Part shown: in pieces, positions 18,376 through 29,996 of the stretch
Position numbering within the stretch: position 1 is the stretch's first letter
Layout: each line of letters begins with the position of its first letter
Assembly: GCF_000146505.1 (NCBI RefSeq)
Contig: NC_017448.1
Coordinates: 1,740,001 to 1,772,000 of the forward strand
Length of the DNA: 32,000 bases
Source of the DNA: Fibrobacter succinogenes subsp. succinogenes S85
GTDB lineage: Bacteria; Fibrobacterota; Fibrobacteria; Fibrobacterales; Fibrobacteraceae
Direction: 5' to 3'
Notes under the pieces: generated by a model
Seen by the model: the letters and a program-made list of their open reading frames with translations, nothing else
Database searches by the model: none
Told to the model about the DNA's origin: nothing
Made by a program: the position numbers and the translations under genes

Positions 18376-18861
18376 TTACATATAATTATTTTCATTCCAG
18401 ACGTTTTGCGGGATTAGCATAAAGAGTTTCGGACTTTCGTTCGTTTCTTTTGCAGAGAATTCCACAACACCATTGGTAAAAGCTTTTACCGTTTTTTCTG
18501 AGTAAAAATCAGGGTACTTCGAAATCCAAGAAGTCGAATCCCATTCAGAACACGTAAAGCAACTAAGAAATTCGCGGAGCTTGGCGACCGTTACAGGAGA
18601 TTCCGTGTCTTCGCAGCGATATTCAGCCACGTCGCAATAAAGAACAATATACGGAGAATCCTTTTTGCAACTGTTTACAAGCAGCCGGCAATGTTCCGTA
18701 GCAGCGAAATCATCCCATTCTTCGCCCACCTCGTCCTTGAAAACGTCAACATCTTCCCACATAGGGCAATTACCGAGTGCGGCAACAATTCGCTCACTAA
18801 GGTCCTTACCTTGCACAACGCAAAACAGGGTTTTTGCTTTTAGAAATTCTTTGATAGTCAT
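18376..18861 (-). CDS. Hypothetical acidic, Cys-rich 161-aa protein
   Basis: The evidence is an open frame, an SD (AAGAGGA) and element copy 1 lying 27 nt upstream. I recognise no domain. Confidence 0.55.
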   Translation of the reverse strand: MTIKEFLKAKTLFCVVQGKDLSERIVAALGNCPMWEDVDVFKDEVGEEWDDFAATEHCRLLVNSCKKDSPYIVLYCDVAEYRCEDTESPVTVAKLREFLSCFTCSEWDSTSWISKYPDFYSEKTVKAFTNGVVEFSAKETNESPKLFMLIPQNVWNENNYM

Positions 18862-18888
18862 GAATCCTCTTTTTTTGAGACTATCAAG

Positions 18889-18931
18889 AATGTAGATTCA
18901 ACGGACGACAATTAACGTCGTCCGACATACC
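18889..18931 (-). promoter_or_regulatory. Island element copy 1 (AATGTA box - N10 - ACGAC N7 GTCGT palindrome)
   Basis: AATGTA lies at 18889-18894. GGACGAC-AATTAAC-GTCGTCC lies at 18903-18923 (7-bp arms). The element is 27 nt upstream of ATG 18861 and 17 nt downstream of the GNAT stop. It shares more than 40 nt with copy 3, differing at only a few positions. Confidence 0.6.
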
Positions 18932-18939
18932 AACAGAAT

Positions 18940-19533
18940 TTAATTTGACAACAGCATCAAATCAAAATACATCATGCGAGTATGCAAAGATGCAGACGAC
19001 TCTATATTCCGATACTGGCACTCCTGTTCTTCAGATGAAAACATGTACCGAAAGCCATTAGCCTCATAAAACGAAAGCGGAATTGGCAGATTGTACGCAT
19101 CAACCACAAGATAACGACACCCGGTCTTGTTATCAGGATCTACAAACCACTGTTTGATATAGTCAAGCAGCTCACTTCCGACATGCTGTTTTTTAAAAGG
19201 AACACCTACGCCAAGTCGGCCAATCAACACAGCAGGATATATCAAATCCCGTTTTTCCCAAGGTAGATTTTTACCAATCTGTTTCTTTCGTGCATTGGGA
19301 AGATAGTTTGTAAAAATACTTGCATTAGATACAGTAAAAGCACAAACTACATCTTTTAAGGTAGATGAATCTACAAAAACATAAGTTTTGCCCATCAGTT
19401 GTTGGCTATACATGACAGCATCCTTAGAAAAGAACGAATCCAAGTCTTCGTTACCACAAGAAAAAGCATTACAACGATTTAAAACTGATGGAGTCAGAGC
19501 CGTGCGAATGCAATTAGATTCTAAAAAGGCCAT
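18940..19533 (-). CDS. GNAT-family acetyltransferase, TacT/KacT/ItaT-like type II toxin candidate
   Basis: The 197-aa protein has F.CGNEDLDSFF near the N-terminus, the acetyl-CoA loop PAVLIGRLGVGVPFKKQHVGSELL, and VVDAYN...FYEANGF. It overlaps a small upstream ORF by 13 nt. Confidence 0.72.
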   Translation of the reverse strand: MAFLESNCIRTALTPSVLNRCNAFSCGNEDLDSFFSKDAVMYSQQLMGKTYVFVDSSTLKDVVCAFTVSNASIFTNYLPNARKKQIGKNLPWEKRDLIYPAVLIGRLGVGVPFKKQHVGSELLDYIKQWFVDPDNKTGCRYLVVDAYNLPIPLSFYEANGFRYMFSSEEQECQYRNIESSASLHTRMMYFDLMLLSN

Positions 19534-19715
19534 TTTCCTTCGGCCCTCAGTTTAGCAATTCGTGCAGCATTGCGCATATCAAACCCACTCCACTCAGAAT
19601 GTTGCCGAGTAAAGTCGATAGATCCGCGGTTACGTTCTGCCTCTTCCGCATTTTTCACGAAAGATTCCGCCACCGCATCCGTCAAAATTGGGATATTGCT
19701 AATTGCTAAGGCCAT
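19521..19715 (-). CDS. Small partner ORF of the GNAT toxin (putative antitoxin), 64 aa from ATG 19715; alternative ATG at 19736
   Basis: A strong SD (TAGGAGAACAAATATG) precedes ATG 19715. The 13-nt overlap with the GNAT gene is typical of TA pairs. The track's 109-aa version (start 19850) runs into a terminator hairpin and is unlikely. The sequence is not obviously DUF1778/RHH. Confidence 0.5.
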   Translation of the reverse strand: MALAISNIPILTDAVAESFVKNAEEAERNRGSIDFTRQHSEWSGFDMRNAARIAKLRAEGKWPF

Positions 19716-19831
19716 ATTTGTTCTCCTAATATACATTTTACCGTTTCGATTTGCAATTCTAAATACCGCCGTTGCCGGAATCCAACTGAATACGAACGTG
19801 TTTTTTCTTGACTCATTTAGCCTCCTAGTTT

Positions 19832-19868
19832 TGAAAAAAAGAAAAAGCATCCGAAATTTTTCGGATGC
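19832..19868 (-). terminator. Rho-independent terminator after the tandem AAA+ gene
   Basis: On the minus strand the stem GCATCCG pairs with CGGATGC (19847-19853 / 19862-19868) and is followed by TTTTTCTTTTTTT. Confidence 0.7.
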
Positions 19869-19955
19869 CTGAGGCCTTTTCTAGGGTCATGCATTAATGT
19901 ATCAATATTTGAATATAGCGACAAGTGCCGATTTGTAACTTTACTGTAAAATAAA

Positions 19956-22259
19956 TTACAGCCCCAATCTGCGTCCTTGATGGTCATCTTTGTTGGCAAT
20001 TTCTTCGAGCATGTTCTGCATAATCAGTTCTCGCGTGCGCAAGTCAGCGGGAACGTAGACAAGTTTACGGCGAACATTTTGGAAATCGCTGATAGACACG
20101 TTATCGCAAGCAAGAACTTCTCTTGGGCATTTATCCCCAAAAAACGATGTCCATGTTTTCGAAACCTGCTTAGAGTCCATATAGTCAAACGCTAGCTTCA
20201 GCTGAAAACGCCGGCGGATCGCCCAATCCAAAACGTTCTCGTAATTCGTGGCTGCAATAAGCATTCCGTTGAACGAATCCATTTGGCATATAAACTCATT
20301 TACCAAAGTCACTTCCCAGTGATTTTTTGCATTACCACGATTTTCAAAAAAGCTATCAGCTTCGTCAATGAAGAGAATAGCATCGCTCTGTTCAGCTTCT
20401 CTGAACATTTCACGAATGTTGCGTTCCGTATCGCCCACAATTCCGCCAAGGATATCGCTTGCACGTTTCACGAGCAAATCGCGACCAAGAATATCTTGAG
20501 CAATATGCTTTGCATAAGCCGACTTCCCCGTTCCCGGAGGACCATACAAAAAGATGTTCAAGTTTTCTCTGCGACCATTCAATGTCGAAGATCGCCATTG
20601 CGCATCAAAATTTTTGAGCATCGGAATGACATAGTCAATATTCTTTATATCCCCGCTAGAAATGCGGACACATTCCATATTGTATTCAAATTCTTTCGCC
20701 TTCTGCGAGCCCATCGATATGCCCAAAAGTTTGGCATGAGACGACGCAATCTCACGCACCACATTCAACGGGGAAAAATCCGCCGCCTGCATCCGCTGCG
20801 CCTGACGCACCGCCAAAGTTATGCTCCCCGCCATCACGGGAATTTCCTTGGCAATATTCTCTATTTCGTCGTTGCACAAAATCGATTCAGCCTGCTGCGC
20901 TTTAAGAACAGACTGCCAAATTGCAACACGTTCTTTATTACTGAACGTAAAAAATTCCAGCGAATAGTCAAACCGGCGACGAGTACTATTTTCAATACAC
21001 GCAATATTATTCGTAATCCAAATAACAGGCGTTTTCAGATTTTCAAAAATGATATTCAGCAAACCTTTCTCCGCCTGATTCAAGACCAAATCAGCTTCGT
21101 CCATCAGAATTATGCCACCACACCGCTCACATTCCCAATCAGCAAGCAACATGGAACGCAAACGAGTCTGCAAAAGGGATTCCTTATCCATAGATTCATC
21201 GCCCATGCCCACAGCAAGCATAGGGACATTCAACTCCTGAGCAAGCGCTTTCGCAAGTTCCGTTTTTCCCGTCCCTTCACGACCGTAAAAAAGAATATTG
21301 AGAGGCGAACCCTTCTGATGAGTTTTCAGCATCTGCAAAACAAAGAACGCCTGCGGATTCGTCTTGACAATTTGCGCATAACCAACGCAAGGTTTTGGCG
21401 CAGTTTTCAAATCCATAATCCTTGATATATCCGAAAAACCAGACAGGAAATCGCTTACCTCGCTCGCCAAATACAGTTCACGCCGCTTGATTTTCAAATC
21501 TGCATTTCGATTCGTTTCCTCCATACGCACCAGCTGAAACTTGATAAGCGCGCTCTCCTTTGAACAGAGTTCATGCAACGTTTCCGGCTCCAACCCAGCA
21601 ATCAAAGAAATTCGCCTAAACGATCCCCGTTCGGACGGATCAAAGTAATCAAACATTTTCGAGATCTTTTCAACCTTAAAAAACATGTTATGATGATCGC
21701 GCAGCCATAAATACAGCACAAGATCCAAGGCTTCATCCGAAAGATGGAAAAGACGCTTCAATTCAAAAGCCCTCTGCATCGACACATCGCTTTCATCGCA
21801 TCCGCCAGCAAGCCAGTTTGCGGAACACTCTTGAATTGACCGAGAAAGCAACAGGCGTGTATAAACATCACCATCGCCCCAATGAGCAACAAAGCTCAGG
21901 AAATGCTTTGCAAAAATGATTCTTCGGCTTTTATGGAATTCTTCAAGAAGATCCTTCGCCTTGTACCACTTATTCTCAATCTCCGTCGTAATTCCAGTAG
22001 GGAGTTCAATGCGTTCACGGGCTTCATACACTCTATCCAAAAAAGTCGCAACGCATTCATCTGTTATATACTTGTCGCAAAAGACCCGACAATCCCCATC
22101 TGGATAATACCGCATAAAGCGGCTCCAAAATTCCATAATTTTCAAGTCCATAAAAGTCGGCTGACCGCTCAGAGACTTTTCAGAGACACCTTCTTTACCA
22201 AGCATTTTGCGCTTATTTTTAAAGTAATTTTCGATTGTATTTTCGTAATGTAACTGCAT
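19956..22259 (-). CDS. Tandem classical AAA+ ATPase (two ATPase modules) with an uncharacterised ~330-aa N-terminal region
   Basis: Module D1 has Walker A YGREGTGKTELAK and Walker B GIILMDEAD. Module D2 has Walker A YGPPGTGKSAYAK, Walker B ILFIDEADSF and a second region of homology (ATNYENVLDWAIRRRF). I place the start at ATG 22259 (MQLHYEN..), which has a GAGG SD. The track's 22343 start would run through element copy 2. Confidence 0.85.
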   Translation of the reverse strand: MQLHYENTIENYFKNKRKMLGKEGVSEKSLSGQPTFMDLKIMEFWSRFMRYYPDGDCRVFCDKYITDECVATFLDRVYEARERIELPTGITTEIENKWYKAKDLLEEFHKSRRIIFAKHFLSFVAHWGDGDVYTRLLLSRSIQECSANWLAGGCDESDVSMQRAFELKRLFHLSDEALDLVLYLWLRDHHNMFFKVEKISKMFDYFDPSERGSFRRISLIAGLEPETLHELCSKESALIKFQLVRMEETNRNADLKIKRRELYLASEVSDFLSGFSDISRIMDLKTAPKPCVGYAQIVKTNPQAFFVLQMLKTHQKGSPLNILFYGREGTGKTELAKALAQELNVPMLAVGMGDESMDKESLLQTRLRSMLLADWECERCGGIILMDEADLVLNQAEKGLLNIIFENLKTPVIWITNNIACIENSTRRRFDYSLEFFTFSNKERVAIWQSVLKAQQAESILCNDEIENIAKEIPVMAGSITLAVRQAQRMQAADFSPLNVVREIASSHAKLLGISMGSQKAKEFEYNMECVRISSGDIKNIDYVIPMLKNFDAQWRSSTLNGRRENLNIFLYGPPGTGKSAYAKHIAQDILGRDLLVKRASDILGGIVGDTERNIREMFREAEQSDAILFIDEADSFFENRGNAKNHWEVTLVNEFICQMDSFNGMLIAATNYENVLDWAIRRRFQLKLAFDYMDSKQVSKTWTSFFGDKCPREVLACDNVSISDFQNVRRKLVYVPADLRTRELIMQNMLEEIANKDDHQGRRLGL

Positions 22260-22286
22260 GGTTTTAACCTCAATTTTGCACCATGC

Positions 22287-22321
22287 AATATAAAAGAAAC
22301 GCACGACAATTAATGTCGTGC
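22287..22321 (-). promoter_or_regulatory. Island element copy 2
   Basis: AATATA lies at 22287-22292. GCACGAC-AATTAAT-GTCGTGC lies at 22301-22321 (perfect 7-bp arms). The element is 27 nt upstream of ATG 22259 and 29 nt downstream of the stop at 22350. Confidence 0.6.
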
Positions 22322-22349
22322 GAGATTTTTTAACAAGCCACACAAAATC

Positions 22350-23567
22350 CTACATGGCTTCATTTGCTTTATTCTCTACTTTCGCCTCATTTACAATTTT
22401 TTCAGTTTTTTTGTACACATCATACAAACCATCCACAATTTGTTTATCATCATTTTCATCTATAGATTGTACAATAATACTCCATTTTTCATTCTGTGAC
22501 AAATCATGAGTCGTTTTTATAACATCTATTTTACCATCAATCAACTTTTTATACAAAGCTTCCCTGGCTCTATCACCATCACCTTGCCATACACTAAGGC
22601 TAATATCAAATTTTTTCTTATTAAAACCAGCCTCTATTCCTAATGCGTATTTAGGATTATTTTCTTCAAAACATCCTTTTAGATAAAAATAACGCCTCTT
22701 ATCCCGAGGATTTATCCAAATCTCTTTCTTCATAAATTCGCAAAAAGTTGCATTTTCCTTTAAGGCAAGAAGATTCTTTATTTTATCAATATGTTGATTA
22801 TTTTCAACTCTTTGTTTTTCCAAAAAAAGATTTCTGCGTTCAATTAGTTGTTCTATAATTCTATTATTTTCATCATTAAGAAAGAAATCTTTTTCATCTT
22901 TAGAAAAATCCGACATATAGCCTCCCTTTCGGTCTAAAAATAAGATAAAATCTGTTAAAACAGGAAGATATTTGGAATTACATTGTGTTAAATAATTACC
23001 TAAATTTTGTTTTAACTTTTCTAAAAACTCTCTATAATAAATCGTTTTAAAATTAGGATTTACATTCTCATATTCAGCCTTTTGACATAAAGCAAAAAGA
23101 ATACACACCGTGTGTAAATCATAACATTCACTTTCATTTTTAACATAATCATAATAATCATTAAAATCATTGTACGCAGGAGCATCAATTTTATTTTCTA
23201 TACACACTTTTAAGCAATCTGTTGTCAACAGTAAATCAATGCGATTCCCTTTTTCAGTATATATTTCTGTTTCAGCACAAACGCTTCGAGTATGCATGAT
23301 ATTTTTCTTATCAAAATTCTCCACTTCTACTGGATACTTTTCTCGATAAGCATCAAAAAGCGAATTAAAAAAAAGAGTTCTAAACCCATGTGGATTTCTT
23401 GAATCAAAGAAAAAAGCGAATATTCTCGAGCATATTTCTTCTAGCCGATTCCACGGATACTCGCACAATTCCAAATAAGTCGGCTCATACATCGGCTTGG
23501 GAAGAAAGTTGTTAAACTTGTTAAGAAGTTCTTTAAACTTTTCAAGCTGATTTTCATCTTTTTCCAT
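22350..23567 (-). CDS. PD-(D/E)XK nuclease family protein (PDDEXK_4-like), 405 aa
   Basis: The core GNRIDLLLTTDCLKVCIENKIDA fits the D...E-x-K pattern. The N-terminal EEICSRIFAFFFDSRNPHGF resembles the E..HS.fLa.LL.P...Hg stretch of this family. It is a paralog of the 24473-25612 protein. The gene is AT-rich. Confidence 0.7.
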   Translation of the reverse strand: MEKDENQLEKFKELLNKFNNFLPKPMYEPTYLELCEYPWNRLEEICSRIFAFFFDSRNPHGFRTLFFNSLFDAYREKYPVEVENFDKKNIMHTRSVCAETEIYTEKGNRIDLLLTTDCLKVCIENKIDAPAYNDFNDYYDYVKNESECYDLHTVCILFALCQKAEYENVNPNFKTIYYREFLEKLKQNLGNYLTQCNSKYLPVLTDFILFLDRKGGYMSDFSKDEKDFFLNDENNRIIEQLIERRNLFLEKQRVENNQHIDKIKNLLALKENATFCEFMKKEIWINPRDKRRYFYLKGCFEENNPKYALGIEAGFNKKKFDISLSVWQGDGDRAREALYKKLIDGKIDVIKTTHDLSQNEKWSIIVQSIDENDDKQIVDGLYDVYKKTEKIVNEAKVENKANEAM

Positions 23568-23612
23568 AAGTAAATCCTCTTAACATTAAATATGATTATA
23601 TCAGACTAGAAG

Positions 23613-23654
23613 AATGTAGATTCAACGCACGACAATTAACGTCGTCAGCATACC
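23613..23654 (-). promoter_or_regulatory. Island element copy 3
   Basis: AATGTA lies at 23613-23618. GCACGAC-AATTAAC-GTCGTCA lies at 23627-23647 (5-bp perfect core). The element is 45 nt upstream of ATG 23567 and 27 nt downstream of the stop at 23674. Confidence 0.6.
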
Positions 23655-23673
23655 TCCTTAACTTTTTTGACAT

Positions 23674-24351
23674 TTATTTCCATAGGGCGCAAATCTTCTG
23701 AATAATCTCTTCCTGTACTTTTCCCTGTGGATGCGGGACGACAATGCAGCAATGCATTTTTCCAGATTCGCCTACTAGGGTAAATTCGCCCGTAGATTCG
23801 TTTTTAGACTTCAATTGACCGCAGGGTTCCCAGCGTTCAAAGAATCGACCAACACCTTTTCCACTTTCGTAGATACCGGTCAAGAAAACGGAAAAACAAG
23901 GATCTAAATCATCCATTTCTGCAAGCAGCAATTGAGCACATTCATTAATCTGTTCACTCCTTAAGCCCTGCGTGGTTCCCTGTTTCGCACGGAAATTAAT
24001 TTTATACAAATCACTCCAATAAAAATCATGGAAAACGTCCGGACCATACGACTCTCCGCGAACTCTTTCAAGAACATGACCGACAACTCGCCAAAAAGGA
24101 GAATCATCATAATAATAACCATCCCTAGATTTGAGCCAGTTCAGTTCATCGTATTCGTAATCGGTCACAAGCGGAACCTTGTCTTGCCCAAGACCGTAAG
24201 TATCACGACCAACGAACATCGGCAACCCTTTCTTAAAGTGGCTTTGCGGACCAACAAAATGCGTCGGCATAATGCCCAAAGCATCGCTATTGGGCAAAGA
24301 TTTCGTCTTTTCGTAAAGGATTTTGTAAAGTTGTTTAACTTGTGGCGTCAT
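23674..24351 (-). CDS. Hypothetical 225-aa protein, possibly uracil-DNA-glycosylase-superfamily fold
   Basis: The coding call rests on the open frame and operon position. The fold idea rests only on FVGRDTYG (compare GQDPYH, motif A) near the N-terminus and VVPHPQG (compare HPSP, motif B) near the C-terminus, in the right order and spacing. This is weak evidence. Confidence 0.55.
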   Translation of the reverse strand: MTPQVKQLYKILYEKTKSLPNSDALGIMPTHFVGPQSHFKKGLPMFVGRDTYGLGQDKVPLVTDYEYDELNWLKSRDGYYYDDSPFWRVVGHVLERVRGESYGPDVFHDFYWSDLYKINFRAKQGTTQGLRSEQINECAQLLLAEMDDLDPCFSVFLTGIYESGKGVGRFFERWEPCGQLKSKNESTGEFTLVGESGKMHCCIVVPHPQGKVQEEIIQKICALWK

Positions 24352-24472
24352 GGTAGAATTCCCTATTTTAAAATTTCATCAAGGTTTTCTTCAATCAAAT
24401 TTTTATTCGTTTGAACGAATTCATCATTTTTAAATTTATAAAAGCCTTATTATTTTCATTTGCATCTAGTTT

Positions 24473-25612
24473 CTAACTAAGCTCTTGAATAGCATCATTC
24501 AATTCTTTTACAAGAGTCGTAAAAGAATCAGGAAGTTTATTGTATTCCAAAGCATCTACAAACGAGCTCTCATTTGGAAATAAAGGTATATTATCTGAGT
24601 AGAATCTCCATTTCATATTTGAGTCATCAACACGAAAACAACTGCATTTCGTTAAAAGTAGCTTTATTATATCATCATCTAACTGATTCGCATTTTTTCT
24701 AAGCAATCCGACTATAAATTTTCCATAATACTCTTTTTGGAACTCAACTGTTAAGAGCCATCGTTCATTGAAAATAATATCAAAACTAGAATACTTTTCC
24801 CAAAGTTTTTCTACATTTGAAATTTTAAAATTCAATTCGTTTGCAAACTGCAACAGCCATTCTTTTATTTTATCAGCAAAACACTTTTTTATTTCTAGCT
24901 GACATTGCATCATATAAAAGAAAAGTTTTAATTTATCTTCTGTACTTGTAAACTCAGACACCAATTCTCTTTTTTCTTCTTGAATCATACCTTGTCCTGT
25001 AAGCTTTAATATTAATTCTCTATATTGATCAATAAGTGAATAAATCCGATATTTTGAATTCGTTTCATCCAAACAACTATTAAGCCACTCTAAAATAAAT
25101 GTATCATAAGAAATACTTTTATACAGATTATTTGGTAAACCATCAAGGCTTTTTGCAGACGGGTCTTTTCCATCTAAAGTCAAATACAACAATTGTGCTT
25201 TAGGATACACATCATGATATTTTGCAAGCTGATTATTTTGATCATCTGCGTAAATTTTATTTTCAATCACAACGCTGTTTTCTTTTTTATCAGTCTCTAA
25301 AAAAATGTCAATAAAGCCTTTGCCATATTTTTCAGATTCAACTTTTTTTTCGCACACCACATTACATAAATCGTCATACCTCAAATTTAATCGTTGAAAA
25401 AATAATTTTAAATATTTTGACGATTGTTTATGAGAACCTTTGGGATTCAACAACTCAGCAATAAAAGCAGAATGTTTTTTTTCTACATTTTCCAATTTTA
25501 GCACTTCAAATACATTGAATAGATCCTTTTCTTTTTTTACATTTTCATATTTTCGTTTAATTGATTCTATTTTCGAAAGCAGATTGGATAATATTTCTGT
25601 ATTAGCATTCAT
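24473..25612 (-). CDS. PD-(D/E)XK nuclease family protein (PDDEXK_4-like), 379 aa from ATG 25612
   Basis: It has NVEKKHSAFIAELLNPKGSHKQSSKYLKLF and the core GFIDIFLETDKKENSVVIENKIYADDQNNQLAKY (D...E-x-K plus QL.(R/K)Y). The track's 25645 start is a TTG; ATG 25612 has an AGGGA SD. Confidence 0.7.
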   Translation of the reverse strand: MNANTEILSNLLSKIESIKRKYENVKKEKDLFNVFEVLKLENVEKKHSAFIAELLNPKGSHKQSSKYLKLFFQRLNLRYDDLCNVVCEKKVESEKYGKGFIDIFLETDKKENSVVIENKIYADDQNNQLAKYHDVYPKAQLLYLTLDGKDPSAKSLDGLPNNLYKSISYDTFILEWLNSCLDETNSKYRIYSLIDQYRELILKLTGQGMIQEEKRELVSEFTSTEDKLKLFFYMMQCQLEIKKCFADKIKEWLLQFANELNFKISNVEKLWEKYSSFDIIFNERWLLTVEFQKEYYGKFIVGLLRKNANQLDDDIIKLLLTKCSCFRVDDSNMKWRFYSDNIPLFPNESSFVDALEYNKLPDSFTTLVKELNDAIQELS

Positions 25613-25647
25613 AGGAATCCCTAAATCAAACTTTTCACAGCCCAAAG

Positions 25648-25785
25648 CTATTTTTTTTCATCTTTCCTCTTTTTTTTCCACTCTTTATACTTTTTAACCC
25701 CCTTTTCAGCGCCTTTTTTGATTCCGAATACAGCAATTAGCGCTTTTACGACTGTAAAAATATCACGTTGAGTAGCCTTATCCAT
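25648..25785 (-). CDS. Unannotated 45-aa ORF: short hydrophobic helix plus a Lys-rich tail
   Basis: It falls below the track's size cutoff, so I translated it by hand: MDKATQRDIFTVVKALIAVFGIKKGAEKGVKKYKEWKKKRKDEKK. A strong SD (AAGGAG) lies 8 nt upstream. The ATG lies 2 nt after the upstream stop, and its own stop lies 36 nt before the next ATG. Confidence 0.5.
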   Translation of the reverse strand: MDKATQRDIFTVVKALIAVFGIKKGAEKGVKKYKEWKKKRKDEKK

Positions 25786-25787
25786 AT

Positions 25788-26837
25788 TTAAACTCCTTCT
25801 AGCAACAATTCCTTTTTATAGGCAATTATTTCCTTACTTTGCATTTCCACTGACTTTAACCATTTTGTTGAAGTATCCAATTTCGGCTTAAAATTATCAA
25901 TCCAATAATTTTCTTTCTTTTCAAACAATCTAAATAAATATTTACCATGCGTTTGACTTCGCATAAGTTCAATTCGATCCTTAGTAAACAATCTCTGAAT
26001 TTTACAACGAATTCGGTTTGATTCTGCCGCTAACGCAGGAAATTCATTTGATTGTTGCAAAAGCAACAACTTAATTTGCCAGGATTCAAACAGAAAAGGT
26101 ATATGCTTTATCAACATATCCATATGTTTTTTCGCTTTACCACGACTATCCCTAAATCCTAGATTTTCACATTTTTCAATTTCATCTTCTAATGAGCGAG
26201 TAATTTCACTTTCCCCACAACATATCAAATGTAAAGCGTTTGTTATTACTTGCATTTTTCTTTCTGGACTTTCTATATGTTGGGCCAAAAACAACTCATT
26301 TTTTGCGGCATCAACTTTTGCAAACCTATCATTCCACTGACCTTTGTATATATCGTCTATAGATTCCTGCATATTTTGCAAAGTTTCCTGAATTGCCGCC
26401 ATTTGAGAAGATAACGAAGCTAAAGCCATCGCCATTTCGGGATTACCCGTAGGCAAAAAACGCTCTTCTAGATCAACTTGTCCGACAAGTTCATTATTTG
26501 TTCCTCGTAAATTTGGAGAAAGAGCATCTCTTGCTGAATTTTTTAACAATTTGGCACCGATCTTCGCCATTTTCATCATTGTTTTTTGAGTGACGCAATA
26601 AATTTTTTCTCCTTTATTTTTTTCAGAAAGAAAATTCACAAGATGCGGACCAAAATTTTTCAAAGTATCATAAGCCAAATTTCTAGCTTCTATTGCAATA
26701 TCTTTTAATGTTTCCGATTGACTATTTTCAATTATCGAAACATCTCCAAGATTTTCATCATTCTCTTGAAGCAATTGCAGCAGTTTATCTTCACAAACCT
26801 GCAAAGATTTGTGATTTTCATTTACATTTTCACTCAT
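25788..26837 (-). CDS. Hypothetical 349-aa, predicted mostly helical protein (no recognised domain)
   Basis: The evidence is a long open frame in an AT-rich segment and a strong SD (AAGGAGTTTTTATG). It is the first gene of a four-ORF string. Confidence 0.65.
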   Translation of the reverse strand: MSENVNENHKSLQVCEDKLLQLLQENDENLGDVSIIENSQSETLKDIAIEARNLAYDTLKNFGPHLVNFLSEKNKGEKIYCVTQKTMMKMAKIGAKLLKNSARDALSPNLRGTNNELVGQVDLEERFLPTGNPEMAMALASLSSQMAAIQETLQNMQESIDDIYKGQWNDRFAKVDAAKNELFLAQHIESPERKMQVITNALHLICCGESEITRSLEDEIEKCENLGFRDSRGKAKKHMDMLIKHIPFLFESWQIKLLLLQQSNEFPALAAESNRIRCKIQRLFTKDRIELMRSQTHGKYLFRLFEKKENYWIDNFKPKLDTSTKWLKSVEMQSKEIIAYKKELLLEGV

Positions 26838-27029
26838 AAAAACTCCTTCTTAAAAAGAAATATACCCTCGTTTTCAGGAAATAGCTTAAAAACAGATCCG
26901 AAATCTTTAATTCACCCTCCCATATTCCAAACGGAACCATTCAACGGTTCCAGTGCAGTATTTTCCTGTTTTTCTCTCATATTTTCCGTAAGTCCTCGCA
27001 TTTATTCTTTGGTTTTGCCGACCATTCCC

Positions 27030-27068
27030 AATATAGAACGGGGCCGCGACAATTACAGTCGTCAGCCC
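27030..27068 (-). promoter_or_regulatory. Island element copy 4 (imperfect, bulged arms)
   Basis: AATATA lies at 27030-27035. GGGCCGCGAC-AATTACA-GTCGTCAGCCC lies at 27041-27068, with the core GCGAC/GTCGT and outer GGGC/GCCC pairing. The element is 192 nt upstream of ATG 26837, inside a 507-bp ORF-poor gap. Confidence 0.5.
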
Positions 27069-27344
27069 TTGGCTTGCATTTTTTTCCCACAAAAAAAGCG
27101 TGGAGTTTATGCAATTTACTCAATCGCGGTTCGGCAAAACCTATACGGAATAAACACAAAAACCCACGCCACGAGGCGCGAGTCAGTGCGCTCAGTCTTC
27201 CGTATATTCAAAATTTTGCCGATTTCGATTGAAAGCCAAGAGCAGAGCTCAAACTTATGTCAAAAACTTGATTACCTTATGAAAACCTCTTTTTTCAGTA
27301 ATATAATCAAATTTTCACAAGGCATGCACGCAAAAGCGCGTTTT

Positions 27345-28631
27345 CTACACTTTTTCAGATCCAAGACTCCACTCTAGTGCGTTTTTTATGTGGATGGTCT
27401 TGCCTTTTACAATCTCGTCACGACTTTCGTCGAAGCAAACCAAAGTCAATTCATTGCACTTGAGCACGTCCGAAGCCTGGACCAAGGCCGAGGTTTCGCG
27501 ATTAAACGCTTTGGTAGAATCAATCTCGTATGCGACTTGCACGAGTTCCTTTGCTTTATCTTGTCTGCAAACAACGAAATCGACTTCTTTAGATTGCGAC
27601 GACGGCTTATAATAATACACGTCATCGAACTCCTTCGCGGCTCGACGCAACAGTTCGATGTAAACCATGTTTTCAAGTCGCCAGCCTAGATTCTCTTGCG
27701 AGAGGGCGTTTTCACGATTGGCAATAAATCCGGTATCAATCACATAAGCCTTGCTGTTACGGAGCCGGACTTTGCTCTTGAACGAATGCTTGCTCAACAG
27801 CCCAATCAAGAAAGCCTGTTTAAGATAATCCACGTATTTTATGGCGGTCGTGGTGCTGTTCAGTCCAAAATTCTCAGCCAGGGATTTGTAATTGACCTCT
27901 TGGCAAGAATTGTTGATTATGTGGTTCGCGATGGTACGGAGAACTTCGGCATGGCGAATTTTGAATCGACCCGCGATATCCTTTAGTATTATAGAGTTAA
28001 ATAAACTTTGTATGTAAGCACGTTTGTTGTTAATGTTTTGCAGTTCCGGGAACCCGCCATATTGCAGATATTCAAGGAAGGCCGATTTACGAGCGGCCTC
28101 TGCCTTAGTCGTAACATCTTGCAGATTCACCTGATGAAAGGCGCAGTATTCCGCAAACGAAAGCGGATAGAGACGAATTTCATTGTAACGTCCGGTCAGA
28201 TGCGTCACAAGTTCGCTACTCAGCAGCTTTGCGTTGGAGCCAGTAACAAACACGTGCAATCCCTGTCGCAAAAGACGGTTCACAAACAAATGCCAACCAT
28301 CGACATTTTGAATTTCATCGAGGAGTATGTACTGGATATCCGTACCGTAGAGTTGATAAAGGCAAAGCAGAAGCGTGTTCAAGTCTTCAACAGAAAGCGA
28401 CATCAACCGATCGTCATCTAGGTTCGCATAAGCATAGTTGATGCCATGATCTTGCAGCACCTTGTGGCATATCGTCGATTTTCCACTGCGGCGAACACCG
28501 ATGACCACCTGTGCAAGCGAACTATCCATTTCAAACAGGGCTTCTTCACTACGAGGCACCCAAGAATCACGCCTAGTCGTGATTTCTTCTTTCTGTTCCG
28601 CAAGAACCTGTAACAGTTTCTTTTCGTCCAT
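27345..28631 (-). CDS. AAA_14/DUF4143-like ATPase, 428 aa
   Basis: It has Walker A GVRRSGKSTICHK and Walker B YILLDEIQNVDGW, plus the C-terminal segment KEVDFVVCRQDKAKELVQVAYEI typical of this family. An SD (AAGAGG) is present. Confidence 0.8.
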   Translation of the reverse strand: MDEKKLLQVLAEQKEEITTRRDSWVPRSEEALFEMDSSLAQVVIGVRRSGKSTICHKVLQDHGINYAYANLDDDRLMSLSVEDLNTLLLCLYQLYGTDIQYILLDEIQNVDGWHLFVNRLLRQGLHVFVTGSNAKLLSSELVTHLTGRYNEIRLYPLSFAEYCAFHQVNLQDVTTKAEAARKSAFLEYLQYGGFPELQNINNKRAYIQSLFNSIILKDIAGRFKIRHAEVLRTIANHIINNSCQEVNYKSLAENFGLNSTTTAIKYVDYLKQAFLIGLLSKHSFKSKVRLRNSKAYVIDTGFIANRENALSQENLGWRLENMVYIELLRRAAKEFDDVYYYKPSSQSKEVDFVVCRQDKAKELVQVAYEIDSTKAFNRETSALVQASDVLKCNELTLVCFDESRDEIVKGKTIHIKNALEWSLGSEKV

Positions 28632-28643
28632 AAAGTACCTCTT

Positions 28644-28723
28644 AATGGACTAAAATATAGGTTTTTATCCATCAAAATGGACTAAAATACAGAAAATAAC
28701 CCATCATAATGGACTAAAATATA
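28644..28723 (-). repeat. Three direct 16-bp repeats at an exact 32-bp period, upstream of the AAA_14 ATPase gene
   Basis: AATGGACTAAAATATA lies at 28644-28659, AATGGACTAAAATACA at 28676-28691 and AATGGACTAAAATATA at 28708-28723. Copies 2 and 3 share further upstream context (CCATCA.AATGG). In gene orientation each reads TATATTTTAGTCCATT, so each contains a TATATT box. Confidence 0.75.
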
Positions 28724-28761
28724 AAATTTGATATTTTTCGCTCAAAAAAGCCAAATCCACA

Positions 28762-29292
28762 TCACAGAATCAAGTTCACGACGAGCTTGACCATGGTTTC
28801 GCGCTCTTCGGGTTTGCTTTCGGCGATGAGCAGCGTGAGTGCGACGAGAGCACCATCGCTCAAAATTTTGGAGCCGTCCACGCGGTAGAGGATTTCGTTG
28901 CGGGACATGTACCACAAGAAAATGAATGCGGCTATGCGCTTGTTGCCATCGATAAAGGAATGGTTCTTGACGAGAAGATAGAGGAGCGTTGCGGCTTTCA
29001 GCTGTACGGTCGGATAAAGGTCCTTGCCGTCGAAGGTCTGGTAAATTTGTCCGAGAGAACTTTTGAAAGAGGCGTCTTTTTCAACGCCGAAGATGCCGCT
29101 GTCGCGGAACTTTTCCTTGAGCACAGCGATAGCGTCCACAGCGAGTTCGTATGTTATGGCACCTTTCGTTTCGGCGTAGTCGCCTGCCTTGGGGATTTCA
29201 AGTTGTTGATGGTCGTACCGGTCCAGCGTTTCGAGGGCCGTTCTAAAGTCGCTGATGACGTTTGCAATTTCAAGTTTTTCGTTTTTATCCAT
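28762..29292 (-). CDS. Fic/Doc-family protein (Doc-type motif)
   Basis: HSFIDGNKRIAAF matches the Doc variant HxFx(D/N)(A/G)NKR of the Fic core. The protein is 176 aa and has a strong SD (AAGGAG). No Phd-like small ORF lies adjacent. Confidence 0.8.
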   Translation of the reverse strand: MDKNEKLEIANVISDFRTALETLDRYDHQQLEIPKAGDYAETKGAITYELAVDAIAVLKEKFRDSGIFGVEKDASFKSSLGQIYQTFDGKDLYPTVQLKAATLLYLLVKNHSFIDGNKRIAAFIFLWYMSRNEILYRVDGSKILSDGALVALTLLIAESKPEERETMVKLVVNLIL

Positions 29293-29322
29293 GACGTACT
29301 CCTTTTGTAGGGGAACGTCAAG

Positions 29323-29355
29323 AATATAGAATGACGATGCGACAATTACTGTCGC
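29323..29355 (-). promoter_or_regulatory. Island element copy 5
   Basis: AATATA lies at 29323-29328 and GCGAC-AATTACT-GTCGC at 29339-29355. The element is 30 nt upstream of ATG 29292 and 6 nt downstream of the PLD stop. Confidence 0.6.
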
Positions 29356-29360
29356 TTAGA

Positions 29361-29882
29361 TTACTTGATTCTATCGCTGCAGAATTCCTGGCGGCCGCAT
29401 TTTTCGCAGTGGGCACCCATCCAGAGCGTGTCGAATTGCTCGATGGCGGGTTCGACGATTTGCGGGTCGTTCGTGAGGATTCCCGCTTCGAAGTTGCGAC
29501 GGAGGGAACTTTTCATGCCGATGCCTGCGCCGGTCAAATTTGCGGAGCCGATGTAGGCGGTTTCAAGGTCGAATATCATCATCTTGAAATGCACTCGCGG
29601 ACACATGACGCGTTCAAGGTCGGTCGCGAGAATCTTATAGCGGTCGAAATCTTCGCGGAAGTTCGGGCCGGGTTCCTTGGCGTGAATGAGCCGCACACCT
29701 ACGCCGCGCTTGAGGAGTCCTGCGAGTTGTCCGAGCAGCGGGATTGATTCGCCGTTCTGTTTCACATAAACATCCTTGATGTCGGCGGTACCGATCCAGA
29801 GCGTTTCGTGGACTGTTGCGATACGGGAAATCACTTCGGAATAGTGTTCTTCGTTTTGGATGTACTTGGTAAACGTGGACAT
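29361..29882 (-). CDS. Single-HKD phospholipase D-superfamily protein (Nuc-like endonuclease candidate), 173 aa from ATG 29882
   Basis: It contains a perfect HxK(x)4D(x)6GSxN motif: HFKMMIFDLETAYIGSANLT. The small size implies a homodimeric Nuc/BfiI-like active site. The C-terminus carries CEKCGRQEFC. The track's 29912 start is a TTG inside element copy 6. Confidence 0.85.
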   Translation of the reverse strand: MSTFTKYIQNEEHYSEVISRIATVHETLWIGTADIKDVYVKQNGESIPLLGQLAGLLKRGVGVRLIHAKEPGPNFREDFDRYKILATDLERVMCPRVHFKMMIFDLETAYIGSANLTGAGIGMKSSLRRNFEAGILTNDPQIVEPAIEQFDTLWMGAHCEKCGRQEFCSDRIK

Positions 29883-29889
29883 AGAAAGA

Positions 29890-29938
29890 AATATAGTATT
29901 GTCGCACGACAATAAATGTCGTCGGATTTATATATATT
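29890..29938. promoter_or_regulatory. Island element copy 6, flanked by divergent -10 boxes (PLD to the left, WYL regulator to the right)
   Basis: ACGAC-AATAAAT-GTCGT lies at 29906-29922. An outward-facing TATATT box sits exactly 10 nt away on each side: AATATA at 29890-29895 (minus strand) and TATATT at 29933-29938 (plus strand). Confidence 0.6.
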
Positions 29939-29996
29939 GAAAATACAAGATGGCGATGCCGGAACGGAGTCCGGCATGACAAGGAAAGAGGTTTTT

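What the first reader, a model, noticed from the sequence alone, without database searches (positions are those of the whole stretch)
18889..29938. Six copies of a rigid AAT(A/G)TA-N10-RCGAC-N7-GTCGY element punctuate the island, one before each minus-strand unit
- **Copies:** 18889-18923, 22287-22321, 23613-23647, 27030-27068, 29323-29355 and 29890-29922.
- **Shared structure:** every copy has a 5-7 bp inverted repeat built on (A/G)CGAC...GTCG(T/C), around a 7-nt AT-rich centre (AATTAAC, AATTAAT, AATTAAC, AATTACA, AATTACT, AATAAAT). In all six copies the gap between the AATRTA box and the first half-site is exactly 10 nt.
- **Position:** all copies are intergenic and co-oriented with the minus-strand genes. 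In gene orientation each reads palindrome-N10-TAYATT. The TAYATT box lies 27, 27, 45, 192, 30 and 7 nt from the next start codon.
- **Specificity:** TATATT-like boxes without the palindrome occur upstream of pilT and the GHKL operon. The box therefore looks like a general -10 element, while the palindrome is island-specific.
- **Preferred reading:** with TAYATT as the -10, the palindrome spans about -39 to -23. That is a repressor/activator operator position for a dimeric HTH, with half-site centres 12 bp apart.
- **Consequence:** the 161-aa protein, the tandem AAA+, the PD-(D/E)XK nuclease, the four-ORF module, Fic/Doc and the PLD nuclease would form one co-regulated regulon. I do not know of such multi-promoter wiring being described for defence islands.
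- **Alternative:** copies 2 and 4 coincide with the G+C shifts bounding the AT-rich segment, and copies 1 and 3 share more than 40 nt of near-identity. The elements could therefore double as module-exchange (cassette-junction) sites.
Basis: partly seen in the sequence, partly recalled or inferred. Interest (0 to 1): 0.85.

Follow-up and report, generated by a model that had tools for sequence, protein, structure and literature searches.

The report
WYL-activator boxes wiring a Fibrobacter island
The repeated palindrome is most likely the binding site of the neighbouring WYL-domain regulator. It sits at the same fixed distance from the -10 box as in the known DriD and PafBC DNA-damage regulons. 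Seven promoters of a variable, defence-like gene island in Fibrobacter are therefore probably switched on together.

Summary
Six CGAC-N7-GTCG palindromes lie exactly 11 nt (Y + N10) from a TAYATT box, where shuffles give none. The sixth palindrome carries a box on both sides, so there are seven promoter readings.

The element matches the known operator of homodimeric WYL activators:
- Caulobacter DriD binds ATACGAC-N7-GTCGTAT with an AT-rich spacer.
- The DriD authors' own constructs place the -10 hexamer 11 nt after GTCG.
- The PafBC consensus tGTCgg-N10-tAnnnT has the same geometry.

The adjacent 338-aa WYL/WCX protein models as wHTH, three helices, WYL, WCX. Its best structural matches are DriD, then PafBC, then the repressors CapW and BrxR.

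None of the seven promoters has a -35 hexamer. The two island units without the palindrome do have one.

A scan of 185,579 species genomes found the composite motif almost only in Fibrobacterota. There it sits before the WYL gene and before the same variable cassettes (PLD nuclease, Fic, tandem AAA+, PD-(D/E)XK). Two Bacteroidota hits sit before WYL genes.

Best reading: a DriD-type, probably ssDNA-triggered activator regulon confined to a cassette island. This is a new member of a known kind. Activation, the ligand and a defence role are all inferred.

The parts
18889..18921 (-). Promoter element P1: palindrome 18905-18921 (arms extend to GGACGAC/GTCGTCC) and -10 box TACATT 18894-18889. It drives the 161-aa gene.
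   Evidence: The start codon lies 27 nt after the box. The same promoter class precedes homologues of the 161-aa gene in 5 other loci.
22287..22319 (-). Promoter element P2: palindrome 22303-22319 (9-bp arms, 22300-22322) and TATATT 22292-22287. It drives the tandem AAA+ gene.
   Evidence: It is conserved before AAA+ orthologues in 8 loci. The scan also flags it as terminator-like on both strands.
23613..23645 (-). Promoter element P3: palindrome 23629-23645 and TACATT 23618-23613. It drives the 405-aa PD-(D/E)XK (PDC-S26-like) gene.
   Evidence: It is 36/37 identical to P1, although the downstream genes are unrelated.
27030..27062 (-). Promoter element P4: palindrome 27046-27062 and TATATT 27035-27030. 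It has a 192-nt leader and drives the unit 26837-23674 (349 aa, a small ORF, a 390-aa PD-(D/E)XK and a 225-aa gene).
   Evidence: Related P4-type promoters in L029 and L046 also have long leaders (179 and 293 nt).
29323..29355 (-). Promoter element P5: palindrome 29339-29355 and TATATT 29328-29323. It drives the Fic/Doc gene.
   Evidence: The same promoter class precedes Fic orthologues in 6 other loci. The palindrome starts 5 nt after the PLD stop codon.
29890..29938 (.). Bidirectional element P6/P7: one palindrome, 29906-29922. TATATT at N10 on the left (29895-29890, - strand) points at the PLD nuclease. TATATT at N10 on the right (29933-29938, + strand) points at the WYL regulator.
   Evidence: matches on both strands. 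The same bidirectional arrangement occurs in L002, L014, L027, L032, L037, L042, L044 and L056.
29997..31013 (+). Gene for the 338-aa wHTH, three-helix linker, WYL, WCX regulator. It is the presumed binder of the palindromes.
   Evidence: Pfam WYL + WCX. AlphaFold model with pLDDT 81. Foldseek best hits are DriD at 3.5e-14, PafBC at 1e-10, CapW at 1e-7 and BrxR at 3e-6. hhalign to a DriD orthologue gives 286 colinear columns, E 4e-4.
29361..29882 (-). PLD-family (DrmC-like) nuclease gene. Its ATG lies 7 nt after the -10 box, so the mRNA is probably leaderless.
   Evidence: The distance is 7 nt in all 7 lineages.
28762..29292 (-). Fic/Doc gene (PDC-S23-like).
23674..26837 (-). Multi-gene unit downstream of P4. 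Its 390-aa member is PDC-S26-like (PD-(D/E)XK).
22350..23567 (-). 405-aa PD-(D/E)XK gene (PDC-S26-like).
19956..22259 (-). 767-aa tandem AAA+ ATPase gene (IetA/IteA-like second domain). An intrinsic terminator follows at 19870-19845.
18376..18861 (-). 161-aa gene with no family match.
28718..28745 (-). Internal control: the ordinary sigma-70-like promoter (TTGAGC-16-TATATT) of the DUF4143 ATPase unit. This unit has no palindrome.
19728..19756 (-). Internal control: the ordinary sigma-70-like promoter (TTGCAA-17-TATATT) of the antitoxin/GNAT pair. This unit has no palindrome.

Best explanation
**What the element is.** Each element is a hybrid promoter that depends on the WYL-domain regulator encoded at 29997-31013.

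**Proposed mechanism.**
1. The regulator binds as a homodimer to CGAC-N7(AT-rich)-GTCG through its winged-HTH domains.
2. With TAYATT taken as -12 to -7, the palindrome covers about -38 to -24. That is where a -35 hexamer would normally sit, and none is present.
3. The bound dimer recruits sigma-70 RNA polymerase to the TAYATT -10 box. This is only possible at one helical register, which explains the rigid 11-nt distance from GTCG to the -10.
4. By analogy with DriD, PafBC and CapW, the WYL domain probably senses single-stranded DNA made during DNA damage or phage replication.
5. The PLD nuclease, Fic/Doc, the two PD-(D/E)XK units, the tandem AAA+, the 161-aa gene and the regulator itself would then be induced together.

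**Shown:**
- the motif, its geometry and the lack of a -35;
- the fold class of the regulator;
- co-occurrence of motif and regulator;
- placement of the motif before start codons in many genomes.

**Inferred:** the binding itself, activation rather than repression, the ligand, and a defence role for the cargo.
For: **1. Same operator as DriD.**
- The DriD consensus is ATACGAC(N7)GTCGTAT, and an AT-rich spacer is needed for binding (PMC10853764).
- DdaA binds CGWCA-N5-TGWCG (PMC12392091).
- Here the consensus is RCGACA-N5-TGTCGY.

**2. Same geometry as DriD and PafBC.**
- In the DriD authors' 'optimised -35' construct the -35 hexamer replaces the last C of CGAC plus 5 spacer bases. Seventeen nt later comes CAATCT, so the -10 starts 11 nt after GTCG (PMC13004042).
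- The didA and bapE promoters align the same way.
- The PafBC consensus tGTCgg(N10)tA(N3)T equals GTCG-N11-TAnnnT (PMC8635444).
- Here the arrangement is GTCG-N11-TAYATT in 7 of 7 readings.

**3. The spacing holds beyond the ascertained hits.** Of 76 unique palindromes in the window plus fetched loci, only one (L024 2429) lacks TAnnnT at N11 on both sides. This includes secondary sites that the search pattern did not select.

**4. Regulator fold.**
- The model shows wHTH, three helices (85-135), WYL and WCX.
- The three-helix linker is the feature that separates DriD-type activators from BrxR/CapW repressors (PMC10853764).
- The Foldseek ranking is DriD, then PafBC, then CapW, then BrxR.

**5. 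Internal control for the -35.** None of the seven element promoters has a -35 hexamer with at least 4 of 6 matches. The two units without a palindrome do (TTGCAA-17-TATATT and TTGAGC-16-TATATT).

**6. Distribution.**
- The strict pattern carries 37 bits, so about 9 chance hits are expected in 596 Gb.
- It gave 47 loci, 40 of them Fibrobacterota.
- 36 of those 40 carry homologues of genes in this window within 8 kb. Most are island genes; L016 matches only the flanking nifS and thiF.
- 22 loci carry the WYL gene.
- Two Bacteroidota hits sit directly before WYL+WCX genes.

**7. Unbiased check.** Six lineages of WYL homologues (41-66% identity) were fetched by protein, not by motif. All have at least one box within 10 kb. 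The isolate Fibrobacter sp. UWB11 has 4 palindromes and 5 promoters in the same layout as the window.

**8. Promoter-like placement.** A start codon lies within 60 nt of the box in 64 of 75 sites. Footprints show that the palindrome, the -10 and the RBS are conserved while the upstream flanks are unrelated.
Against: - No experiment exists. Binding, the transcription start sites and induction are all untested.
- Sequence similarity to DriD is marginal: HMM against PDB gives E about 1, only over the WCX domain. Identity in the structural alignments is 14%. hhalign probability is only 35%.
- The register of the recognition helix against DriD is ambiguous. The invariant R42/Q45/R46 cannot be equated with DriD R37/E40/R41.
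- The three-helix region has only moderate model confidence (pLDDT 60-76).
- A protein bound at -38 to -24 could equally occlude RNA polymerase, which is how CapW and BrxR work.
- In Caulobacter the bidirectional driD promoter is activated in one direction only, and driD is not autoregulated. Symmetric use here is therefore uncertain.
- The 'defence' label for the cargo rests on PADLOC candidate families and weak matches.
Confidence: 0.72

Rival explanations
1. The palindromes are operators of the same WYL protein, but it acts as a repressor, as CapW and BrxR do. It would sit over the -35 region and be released by a phage or DNA-damage signal.
For: - WYL regulators next to defence systems that have been characterised (BrxR, CapW) are repressors. 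CapW is released by ssDNA (PMC9122601; PMC11662680 abstract).
- A site covering about -38 to -24 would occlude RNA polymerase.
- The regulator gene carries a box in its own promoter, as autorepressors typically do.
Against: - The fold is the activator type: a three-helix linker rather than a helix plus beta-hairpin. DriD and PafBC rank 4-8 orders of magnitude better than CapW and BrxR.
- The operator sequence and its distance to the -10 are those of DriD/PafBC-activated promoters.
- BrxR boxes are 11-5-11 repeats lying downstream of the -10.
- The promoters lack a -35, so they should be weak and hardly need repression. Palindrome-free promoters in the same island have a -35.
- A repressor does not need one exact spacing in more than 70 sites.
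Confidence: 0.15
2. The elements are primarily cassette-junction or recombination sites. Modules are exchanged through them at a chromosomal hotspot, and the promoter role is secondary.
For: - The island sits next to nifS-thiF, and its content differs between genomes while the same cassettes recur in other orders.
- Homology blocks end within a few bases of the distal edge of the palindrome, for example at 22322-22325 and 29356-29358.
- P1 and P3 are 36/37 identical before unrelated genes.
- G+C content shifts at P2 and P4.
Against: - No integrase or recombinase is in the window.
- Intergenic spacers are so short (the palindrome starts 5 nt after the preceding stop) that any gene-sized block must end there.
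- The rigid link to a -10 box and to start codons, the bidirectional copy at the regulator, and the identity with the DriD operator are not explained by recombination.
- The motif is absent from viral contigs.
Confidence: 0.08
3. The palindromes act at the RNA or DNA-structure level, as terminators, stabilising hairpins or a REP-like repeat. Their nearness to promoters would then be incidental.
For: - As RNA they fold at -8.8 to -17 kcal/mol, with z-scores of -3 to -6.6 in five of six copies.
- Copy 2 has a 9-bp stem followed by a T run and is flagged as terminator-like.
- The flanks outside the core show more complementarity than shuffles do.
Against: - Only copy 2 has a U tract.
- The elements lie upstream of the -10, so they are not in the transcripts they precede.
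- They also occur where no gene is upstream, and in a bidirectional form.
- There is no Rfam match.
- They are not dispersed through genomes but are confined to the WYL island.
- The excess complementarity is confounded by orthologous copies.
Confidence: 0.03

Closest known systems
DriD regulon of Caulobacter crescentus (homodimeric wHTH-3HB-WYL-WCX activator, ssDNA-sensing)
   Same: - Operator core CGAC-N7-GTCG with an AT-rich spacer.
- The -10 hexamer starts 11 nt after GTCG.
- No -35 hexamer.
- A box lies in the bidirectional promoter of the regulator gene.
- Several promoters are served by one regulator.
- Same domain order, and best structural match.
   Different: - Only about 14% identity, and no significant sequence hit.
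- Different phylum.
- The outer arm positions are not ATA/TAT but variable.
- The targets are not DNA-repair or division genes. They are a compact, variable island of nuclease, Fic and AAA+ cassettes.
- The regulator's own side also carries a -10 at the activating distance, whereas driD itself is not activated.
PafBC sigma-adaptation promoters of mycobacteria
   Same: - The consensus tGTCgg(N10)tA(N3)T gives the same GTCG-N11-TAnnnT geometry.
- There is no -35.
- The activator is a WYL protein triggered by ssDNA.
   Different: - PafBC is a heterodimer. It reads a single half-site and cannot bind DNA without RNA polymerase.
- Here there is one gene and a full palindrome.
DdaA of Moraxellaceae (WYL activator of DNA-damage and anti-phage genes)
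   Same: - Near-identical motif, CGWCA-N5-TGWCG.
- A WYL activator has sites at the promoters of defence systems (Zorya, RM, CRISPR-Cas).
   Different: - DdaA is a genome-wide DNA-damage regulator that replaces SOS.
- Its sites are reported about 50 bp upstream of the TSS.
- Here the regulon appears confined to one island. No repair genes turned up in the strict scan.
BrxR / CapW (WYL repressors of BREX, CBASS and defence islands)
   Same: - A WYL regulator is encoded at the edge of a defence island.
- It binds inverted repeats.
- pEFER has two boxes in one island.
   Different: - The linker fold differs (helix plus beta-hairpin).
- The operators differ (11-5-11 repeats downstream of the -10).
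- They repress.
- They are weaker structural matches.
Integron cassette arrays (attC sites)
   Same: A short imperfect palindrome lies between successive, variable, co-oriented cassettes.
   Different: - There is no integrase and no attC-like R/L boxes.
- Each cassette here carries its own promoter, whereas integron cassettes are promoterless (my own knowledge).
- The palindrome is tied to a -10 box.

Membership tests
DriD-type homodimeric WYL activator regulon | The regulator has the domain order wHTH, three-helix bundle, WYL, WCX. | tested here: met
   Pfam finds WYL + WCX. The AlphaFold model shows an HTH with wing (6-72), helices 85-101, 103-118 and 122-135, then WYL and WCX. DriD chains are the best PDB matches at E 3.5e-14. 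Confidence in the helical linker is only moderate.
DriD-type homodimeric WYL activator regulon | The operator is CGNC-N7-GNCG with an AT-rich spacer. | tested here: met
   All six palindromes are RCGAC-N7-GTCGY, and each spacer has at most one G or C. The DriD consensus is in PMC10853764.
DriD-type homodimeric WYL activator regulon | The operator lies at one fixed distance from the -10 and overlaps the -35 position. | tested here: met
   GTCG-N11-TAYATT holds in 7 of 7 readings here and in nearly all of 76 palindromes in related loci. It equals the spacing in the DriD authors' constructs.
DriD-type homodimeric WYL activator regulon | The regulated promoters lack a -35 hexamer. | tested here: met
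   None of the seven is called by the sigma-70 scan, while the two palindrome-free units in the island are. The position-weight table shows no TTG at the -35 position.
DriD-type homodimeric WYL activator regulon | A box lies in the promoter region of the regulator gene itself. | tested here: met
   The box is at 29906-29922, 74 nt before the WYL start codon. A box precedes the WYL gene in 17 promoter variants.
DriD-type homodimeric WYL activator regulon | Detectable sequence homology to DriD, with the base-reading arginines conserved. | tested here: inconclusive
   The HMM against PDB hits DriD only at E about 1, over the WCX domain. hhalign to a DriD orthologue is colinear over 286 columns at E 4e-4 but with probability 35%. 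R42/Q45/R46 are invariant, but the register against DriD R37/E40/R41 is ambiguous.
DriD-type homodimeric WYL activator regulon | [quoted passage not shown] | not testable with these tools
   This needs EMSA or fluorescence polarisation, in-vitro transcription, and in-vivo induction.
PafBC sigma adaptation | A heterodimer of two WYL paralogues reads a non-palindromic -26 element. | tested here: not met
   There is a single regulator gene and a full palindrome. Only the geometry from the proximal half-site to the -10 is shared.
BrxR/CapW-type WYL repressor | The linker between HTH and WYL is a helix plus beta-hairpin, and the operator lies at or after the -10. | tested here: not met
   The model has three helices in the linker. 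The operator lies upstream of the -10. CapW and BrxR rank below DriD and PafBC. The criteria come from PMC10853764 and PMC9122601.
Integron-like cassette array | A tyrosine integrase lies next to the array, and promoterless cassettes end in attC sites. | tested here: not met
   No integrase domain was found among the window proteins scanned. Every cassette has its own -10 box.
Intrinsic terminator / REP-like repeat | A hairpin followed by a U tract, or genome-wide dispersal between convergent genes. | tested here: not met
   Only copy 2 has a T run. The hits are confined to WYL islands. There is no Rfam family.
Known anti-phage defence systems (PADLOC) | The cargo genes match complete, validated systems. 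| tested here: inconclusive
   Matches are to candidate families only (PDC-S26 twice, PDC-S23), plus partial IetA-like and DrmC-like matches far below NCBIfam cut-offs.

The most novel reading that the evidence does not exclude
**Portable promoters.** The roughly 35-45-nt 'WYL box plus -10' may be a portable, plug-and-play promoter.
- At a chromosomal hotspot next to nifS-thiF, Fibrobacter strains swap single-gene toxin, nuclease and ATPase cassettes.
- Each cassette carries this box. Recombination between boxes shuffles them, which would explain P1 and P3 being 36/37 identical before unrelated genes.
- Any captured gene is then automatically placed under one ssDNA-triggered activator.

**A wider rule.** GTCG-N11-TAnnnT without a -35 would then be a promoter grammar shared by WYL activators in at least four phyla: Actinomycetota, Pseudomonadota, Fibrobacterota and Bacteroidota. 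It would be usable to predict their regulons from sequence alone.
Probability: 0.25. Interest if true: 0.7.

Novelty: new member of a known kind. Interest (0 to 1): 0.45.

Why it matters
**What it adds**
- It extends the DriD/PafBC type of activator-dependent hybrid promoter to Fibrobacterota, and by two hits to Bacteroidota. The regulators there share only about 14% identity, yet keep the same operator core and the same base-pair spacing to the -10. This suggests a very old and predictive promoter grammar for WYL activators.
- It gives a concrete, testable wiring diagram for a variable island of mostly uncharacterised candidate defence or toxin genes. One sensor, seven promoters and a predicted trigger (ssDNA from DNA damage or phage replication).
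- It shows how single-gene cassettes can each carry their own copy of the regulator's box.

**What is not new**
- The principle of a WYL regulator controlling defence genes from several boxes is already published.

Tried and rejected
1. **Sequence searches against PDB.** I used the full protein, its N-terminal 141 residues and a 19-sequence profile. There was no usable DriD hit in the HTH domain.
2. **Residue-level match of the recognition helix.** I rebuilt a DriD orthologue from a frameshifted contig (L054) and ran hhalign. The alignment is colinear overall, but the helix register is ambiguous. I therefore dropped the claim that R42/R46 equal DriD R37/R41.
3. **Search for full-length DriD homologues.** The search with the DriD C-domain returned only proteins of 288 aa or fewer, shorter than DriD's 327.
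4. **Rfam.** Only a sub-threshold Flavo-1 match (22 bits against a 42-bit gathering score) at 18843-18894. I rejected it.
5. **Viral contig scan for the composite motif.** No hits, so the element is not phage-borne.
6. **Terminator or hairpin reading.** The energies are favourable, but only copy 2 has a U tract.
7. **Covariation of the outer arm positions.** I looked for hairpin selection and found an excess, but it is confounded by orthologous copies, so I did not use it.
8. **Integron or recombinase reading.** No recombinase domain was found.
9. **Literature search for Fibrobacter plus WYL.** Nothing relevant.

Full report
**1. The observation**

The composite pattern AATRTA-N10-RCGAC-N7-GTCGY is present at all six stated positions. 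It has a seventh match on the other strand at 29906-29938. None of 100 dinucleotide-preserving shuffles gave a single match. The bare palindrome occurs exactly only at these six places in the 32-kb window. A relaxed scan finds no further copies.

The seventh match is informative. The palindrome at 29906-29922 has TATATT exactly 10 nt from each outer base. One box faces the PLD nuclease gene. The other faces the WYL gene that starts at 29997.

So is the composition shift around 22.35-26.84 kb.

Two minus-strand units have no element: an antitoxin/GNAT pair (18940-19715) and a DUF4143 ATPase (27345-28631).

**2. The genes**

The window comes from a Fibrobacter, since a Fib_succ_major domain protein lies at 12936-14312. 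The island runs from just after thiF (16575) to the WYL gene.

| Coordinates | Product | Evidence |
|---|---|---|
| 18376-18861 | 161-aa protein, no family | |
| 19956-22259 | tandem AAA+, IetA/IteA-like second domain | |
| 22350-23567 | PD-(D/E)XK, candidate family PDC-S26 | |
| 23674-26837 | four-ORF unit, including a second PDC-S26-like nuclease | |
| 28762-29292 | Fic/Doc, PDC-S23-like | |
| 29361-29882 | PLD-family nuclease, DrmC-like | |
| 29997-31013 | 338-aa WYL + WCX protein | |

None of the cargo amounts to a complete validated defence system. 'Defence-like' is therefore an inference.

**3. What the palindrome is**

The literature on WYL regulators gives a direct match.
- Caulobacter DriD binds ATACGAC(N7)GTCGTAT. 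The conserved core is CGNC-N7-GNCG, and an AT-rich spacer is needed for binding (PMC10853764).
- The related activator DdaA binds CGWCA-N5-TGWCG (PMC12392091).
- The Fibrobacter sites read RCGACA-N5-TGTCGY.

The 2026 cryo-EM study of DriD states three things. [quoted passage not shown] They overlap the place where a -35 would be. The promoters lack -35 hexamers (PMC13004042).

The figure with the alignment is not readable, but the oligonucleotides are.
- In the 'optimised -35' construct, TTGACA replaces the last C of CGAC plus five spacer bases. Seventeen bases later comes CAATCT. The -10 therefore starts 11 nt after GTCG.
- The didA and bapE promoters align the same way, with CAAGGT and CAAGCC.
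- The mycobacterial PafBC consensus tGTCgg(N10)tA(N3)T has the same arithmetic (PMC8635444).

**4. The regulator**

- Sequence searches against solved structures give only marginal hits.
- An AlphaFold model from 19 homologues has mean pLDDT 81. It shows a winged HTH, three helices (85-135), a WYL beta domain and a WCX domain.
- Foldseek against the PDB ranks DriD first (3.5e-14), then PafBC (about 1e-10), then CapW (1e-7) and BrxR (3e-6).
- According to the DriD structure paper, a three-helix bundle between HTH and WYL marks homodimeric activators. The repressors have a helix plus beta-hairpin there.
- A DriD orthologue rebuilt from L054 aligns colinearly over 286 columns (hhalign E 4e-4, probability 35%).

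The family-invariant R42, Q45 and R46 in the predicted recognition helix recall DriD R37/E40/R41 and PafB R46/R50. The register is ambiguous, so I do not claim equivalence.

**5. Internal control for the missing -35**

The simple sigma-70 scan calls none of the seven element promoters. It does call the two island units that lack the palindrome:
- TTGCAA-17-TATATT before the antitoxin/GNAT pair;
- TTGAGC-16-TATATT before the DUF4143 ATPase.

Fibrobacter promoters can therefore have ordinary -35 hexamers. In the boxed promoters the palindrome takes that place.

Intrinsic terminators at 19870-19845 and 27184-27161 separate the units.

**6. Distribution**

The strict pattern RCGACNNTWAWTGTCGY-N10-TAYATT carries 37 bits. 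About 9 chance hits are expected in 596 Gb on two strands. It matched 47 stretches in 185,579 species genomes, and 40 of them are Fibrobacterota.

- Several contigs carry three or four hits, and eight loci have the bidirectional form.
- 22 loci hold a WYL homologue within 8 kb.
- 36 of the 40 Fibrobacterota loci hold homologues of genes in this window, mostly island genes and often next to nifS-thiF. L016 matches only nifS and thiF.
- Among 76 unique palindromes, all but one have TAnnnT exactly 11 nt after GTCG on at least one side. This includes secondary sites that the pattern did not select.
- A start codon follows within 60 nt in 64 of 75 oriented sites.

The downstream genes fall into classes:

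| Downstream gene | Promoter variants |
|---|---|
| WYL regulator | 17 |
| tandem AAA+ | 8 |
| PLD nuclease | 7 |
| Fic | 7 |
| 161-aa protein | 6 |
| PD-(D/E)XK | 2 |
| truncated GyrA-like protein | 2 |

Single or small groups include a SprT-like protein, small zinc-ribbon peptides and small glycine-rich peptides.

Alignment of each class shows that the palindrome, the -10 and the RBS are conserved while the upstream flank is unrelated.

Two of the seven hits outside Fibrobacterota (Salinimicrobium marinum and a Weeksellaceae MAG) sit directly before WYL + WCX genes. The remaining five are about what chance predicts.

No hit was found in viral contigs.

**7. Check without ascertainment by motif**

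I fetched loci for six WYL homologues of 41-66% identity by protein, not by motif. All have at least one box within 10 kb.

| Locus | Source | Sites |
|---|---|---|
| L048 | Fibrobacter sp. UWP2 | four |
| L050 | F. intestinalis | one, before the tandem AAA+ |
| L052 | metagenome | one |
| L055 | metagenome | one |
| L056 | Fibrobacter sp. UWB11 (isolate) | four palindromes serving five promoters (AAA+, PD-(D/E)XK, 227-aa gene, PLD and WYL), same layout as the window, next to nifS |
| L057 | metagenome | two, one without a clear -10 |

**8. Mechanism proposed**

The homodimeric WYL protein binds the palindrome. The palindrome spans about -38 to -24 if TAYATT is -12 to -7. The protein recruits sigma-70 holoenzyme to a promoter that has a good -10 but no -35. 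This only works at one helical register, hence the invariant spacing.

By analogy with DriD, PafBC and CapW, the trigger is probably ssDNA bound by the WYL domain. The island genes and the regulator would then be induced together on DNA damage or phage replication.

- Shown: the motif, its geometry, the lack of a -35, the fold class, the co-occurrence and the placement.
- Inferred: the binding, the direction of regulation, the ligand and the biological role.

I put 0.72 on this reading.

**9. Rivals**

- **Repressor reading (0.15).** It fits the precedent of BrxR and CapW next to defence genes. The fold, the operator type and position, the missing -35 and the strict spacing argue against it.
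- **Recombination-site reading (0.08 as the primary function).** In favour are the cassette mosaicism, block ends at the boxes, the near-identity of P1 and P3 and the G+C shifts. Against it, no recombinase is present, and intergenic spacers are so short that blocks must end there anyway. It may still be true as a by-product of 35-45-nt repeats.
- **RNA hairpin, terminator or REP reading (0.03).** It fails on the U tract, on position and on distribution.

**10. Comparison and novelty**

This works like DriD. It meets every DriD-type feature that sequence analysis can test, except clear sequence homology (see the membership table).

It is not PafBC-like in subunit composition, and not BrxR/CapW-like in fold or operator.

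The general idea that a WYL regulator controls defence genes from several boxes is published: BrxR with two boxes in pEFER, and DdaA at Zorya, RM and CRISPR promoters. No paper in the searchable library links Fibrobacter and WYL regulators.

I file it as a new member of a known kind. Three features are unusual:
- the regulon seems confined to one variable hotspot island;
- nearly every cassette carries its own box;
- the same GTCG-N11-TAnnnT grammar now appears in four phyla.

Noticed in passing
window 28644-28739: Three tandem 32-nt direct repeats (AATGGACTAAAATA...) lie between the sigma-70-like promoter (28745-28718) and the start codon of the DUF4143/AAA_14 ATPase at 28631. They look like operator or iteron repeats. 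The cassette is 88-96% identical at the DNA level in L022 and L046.
   Followed up: no
window 29882-29895; also L002, L027, L032, L036, L037, L042: The PLD nuclease ATG lies exactly 7 nt after the -10 box in all seven lineages, so the mRNA is probably leaderless. pilT in the same window has the same arrangement (TATATT 11299-11294, then ATG at 11286).
   Followed up: partly
window 29958-29975; leaders of WYL genes in L016, L023, L025, L037, L039, L043, L047: The 5' leader of the WYL regulator gene holds a G+C-rich hairpin (GCCGGAACGGAGTCCGGC). Several other lineages have a hairpin at the same place with a different sequence, for example CCCCGCCTCGCGGGG and GGAGCCCGTTTCGGGGCTC. This hints at a conserved leader structure. 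Other lineages have short leaders without it.
   Followed up: no
window 22300-22322: In copy 2 the arms extend to 9 bp and are followed by T runs on both strands. The same element that serves as the AAA+ promoter box is therefore scored as an intrinsic terminator for the upstream PD-(D/E)XK gene. This extended form is conserved before AAA+ orthologues.
   Followed up: partly
73 unique palindromes in the window and loci L002-L053: The three to six bases outside the CGAC/GTCG core are variable in sequence but complementary more often than column shuffles predict, for example GCA...TGC, AGA...TCT and CCG...CGG. The DriD consensus has fixed ATA/TAT there. The excess is confounded by orthologous copies and remains unexplained.
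   Followed up: partly
window 18940-19715: A 60-aa ORF overlaps a 197-aa weak GNAT-domain ORF. Together they look like a type II toxin-antitoxin pair (antitoxin plus acetyltransferase toxin) inside the island. The pair has its own -35/-10 promoter and no WYL box.
   Followed up: no
L010 1279-1311 (Salinimicrobium marinum); L015 2755-2787 (Weeksellaceae MAG): The same composite motif sits 17-26 nt before 299-aa WYL + WCX genes in two Bacteroidota. In L015 the box reads TATATTTG, which matches the Bacteroidetes-type -7 element TAnnTTTG (my own knowledge).
   Followed up: partly
L018 and L045 (338-aa ORFs); L042 (126-aa ORF): In other Fibrobacter genomes the box drives a truncated GyrA/ParC N-terminal-domain protein (Pfam DNA_topoisoIV, 2.8e-37) and a SprT-like protein. 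These cargo functions are linked to DNA topology and DNA-protein crosslinks rather than to classic defence.
   Followed up: no
window 26838-27029; L029, L046: The P4-type promoter has unusually long leaders (192, 179 and 293 nt). Its first roughly 40-60 nt travel with the 3' flank of the DUF4143 ATPase cassette in other genomes. The window leader contains a hairpin (GGAACCGTTGAATGGTTCC). Its function is unknown.
   Followed up: no
L012 2248-2296 (Chitinivibrionales MAG): A bidirectional box lies between an HD-domain gene and a large PD-(D/E)XK_1 (AddB-like) gene. No WYL gene is detectable within 5.6 kb. This suggests the grammar extends to relatives of Fibrobacter with DNA-repair-like targets.
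   Followed up: no
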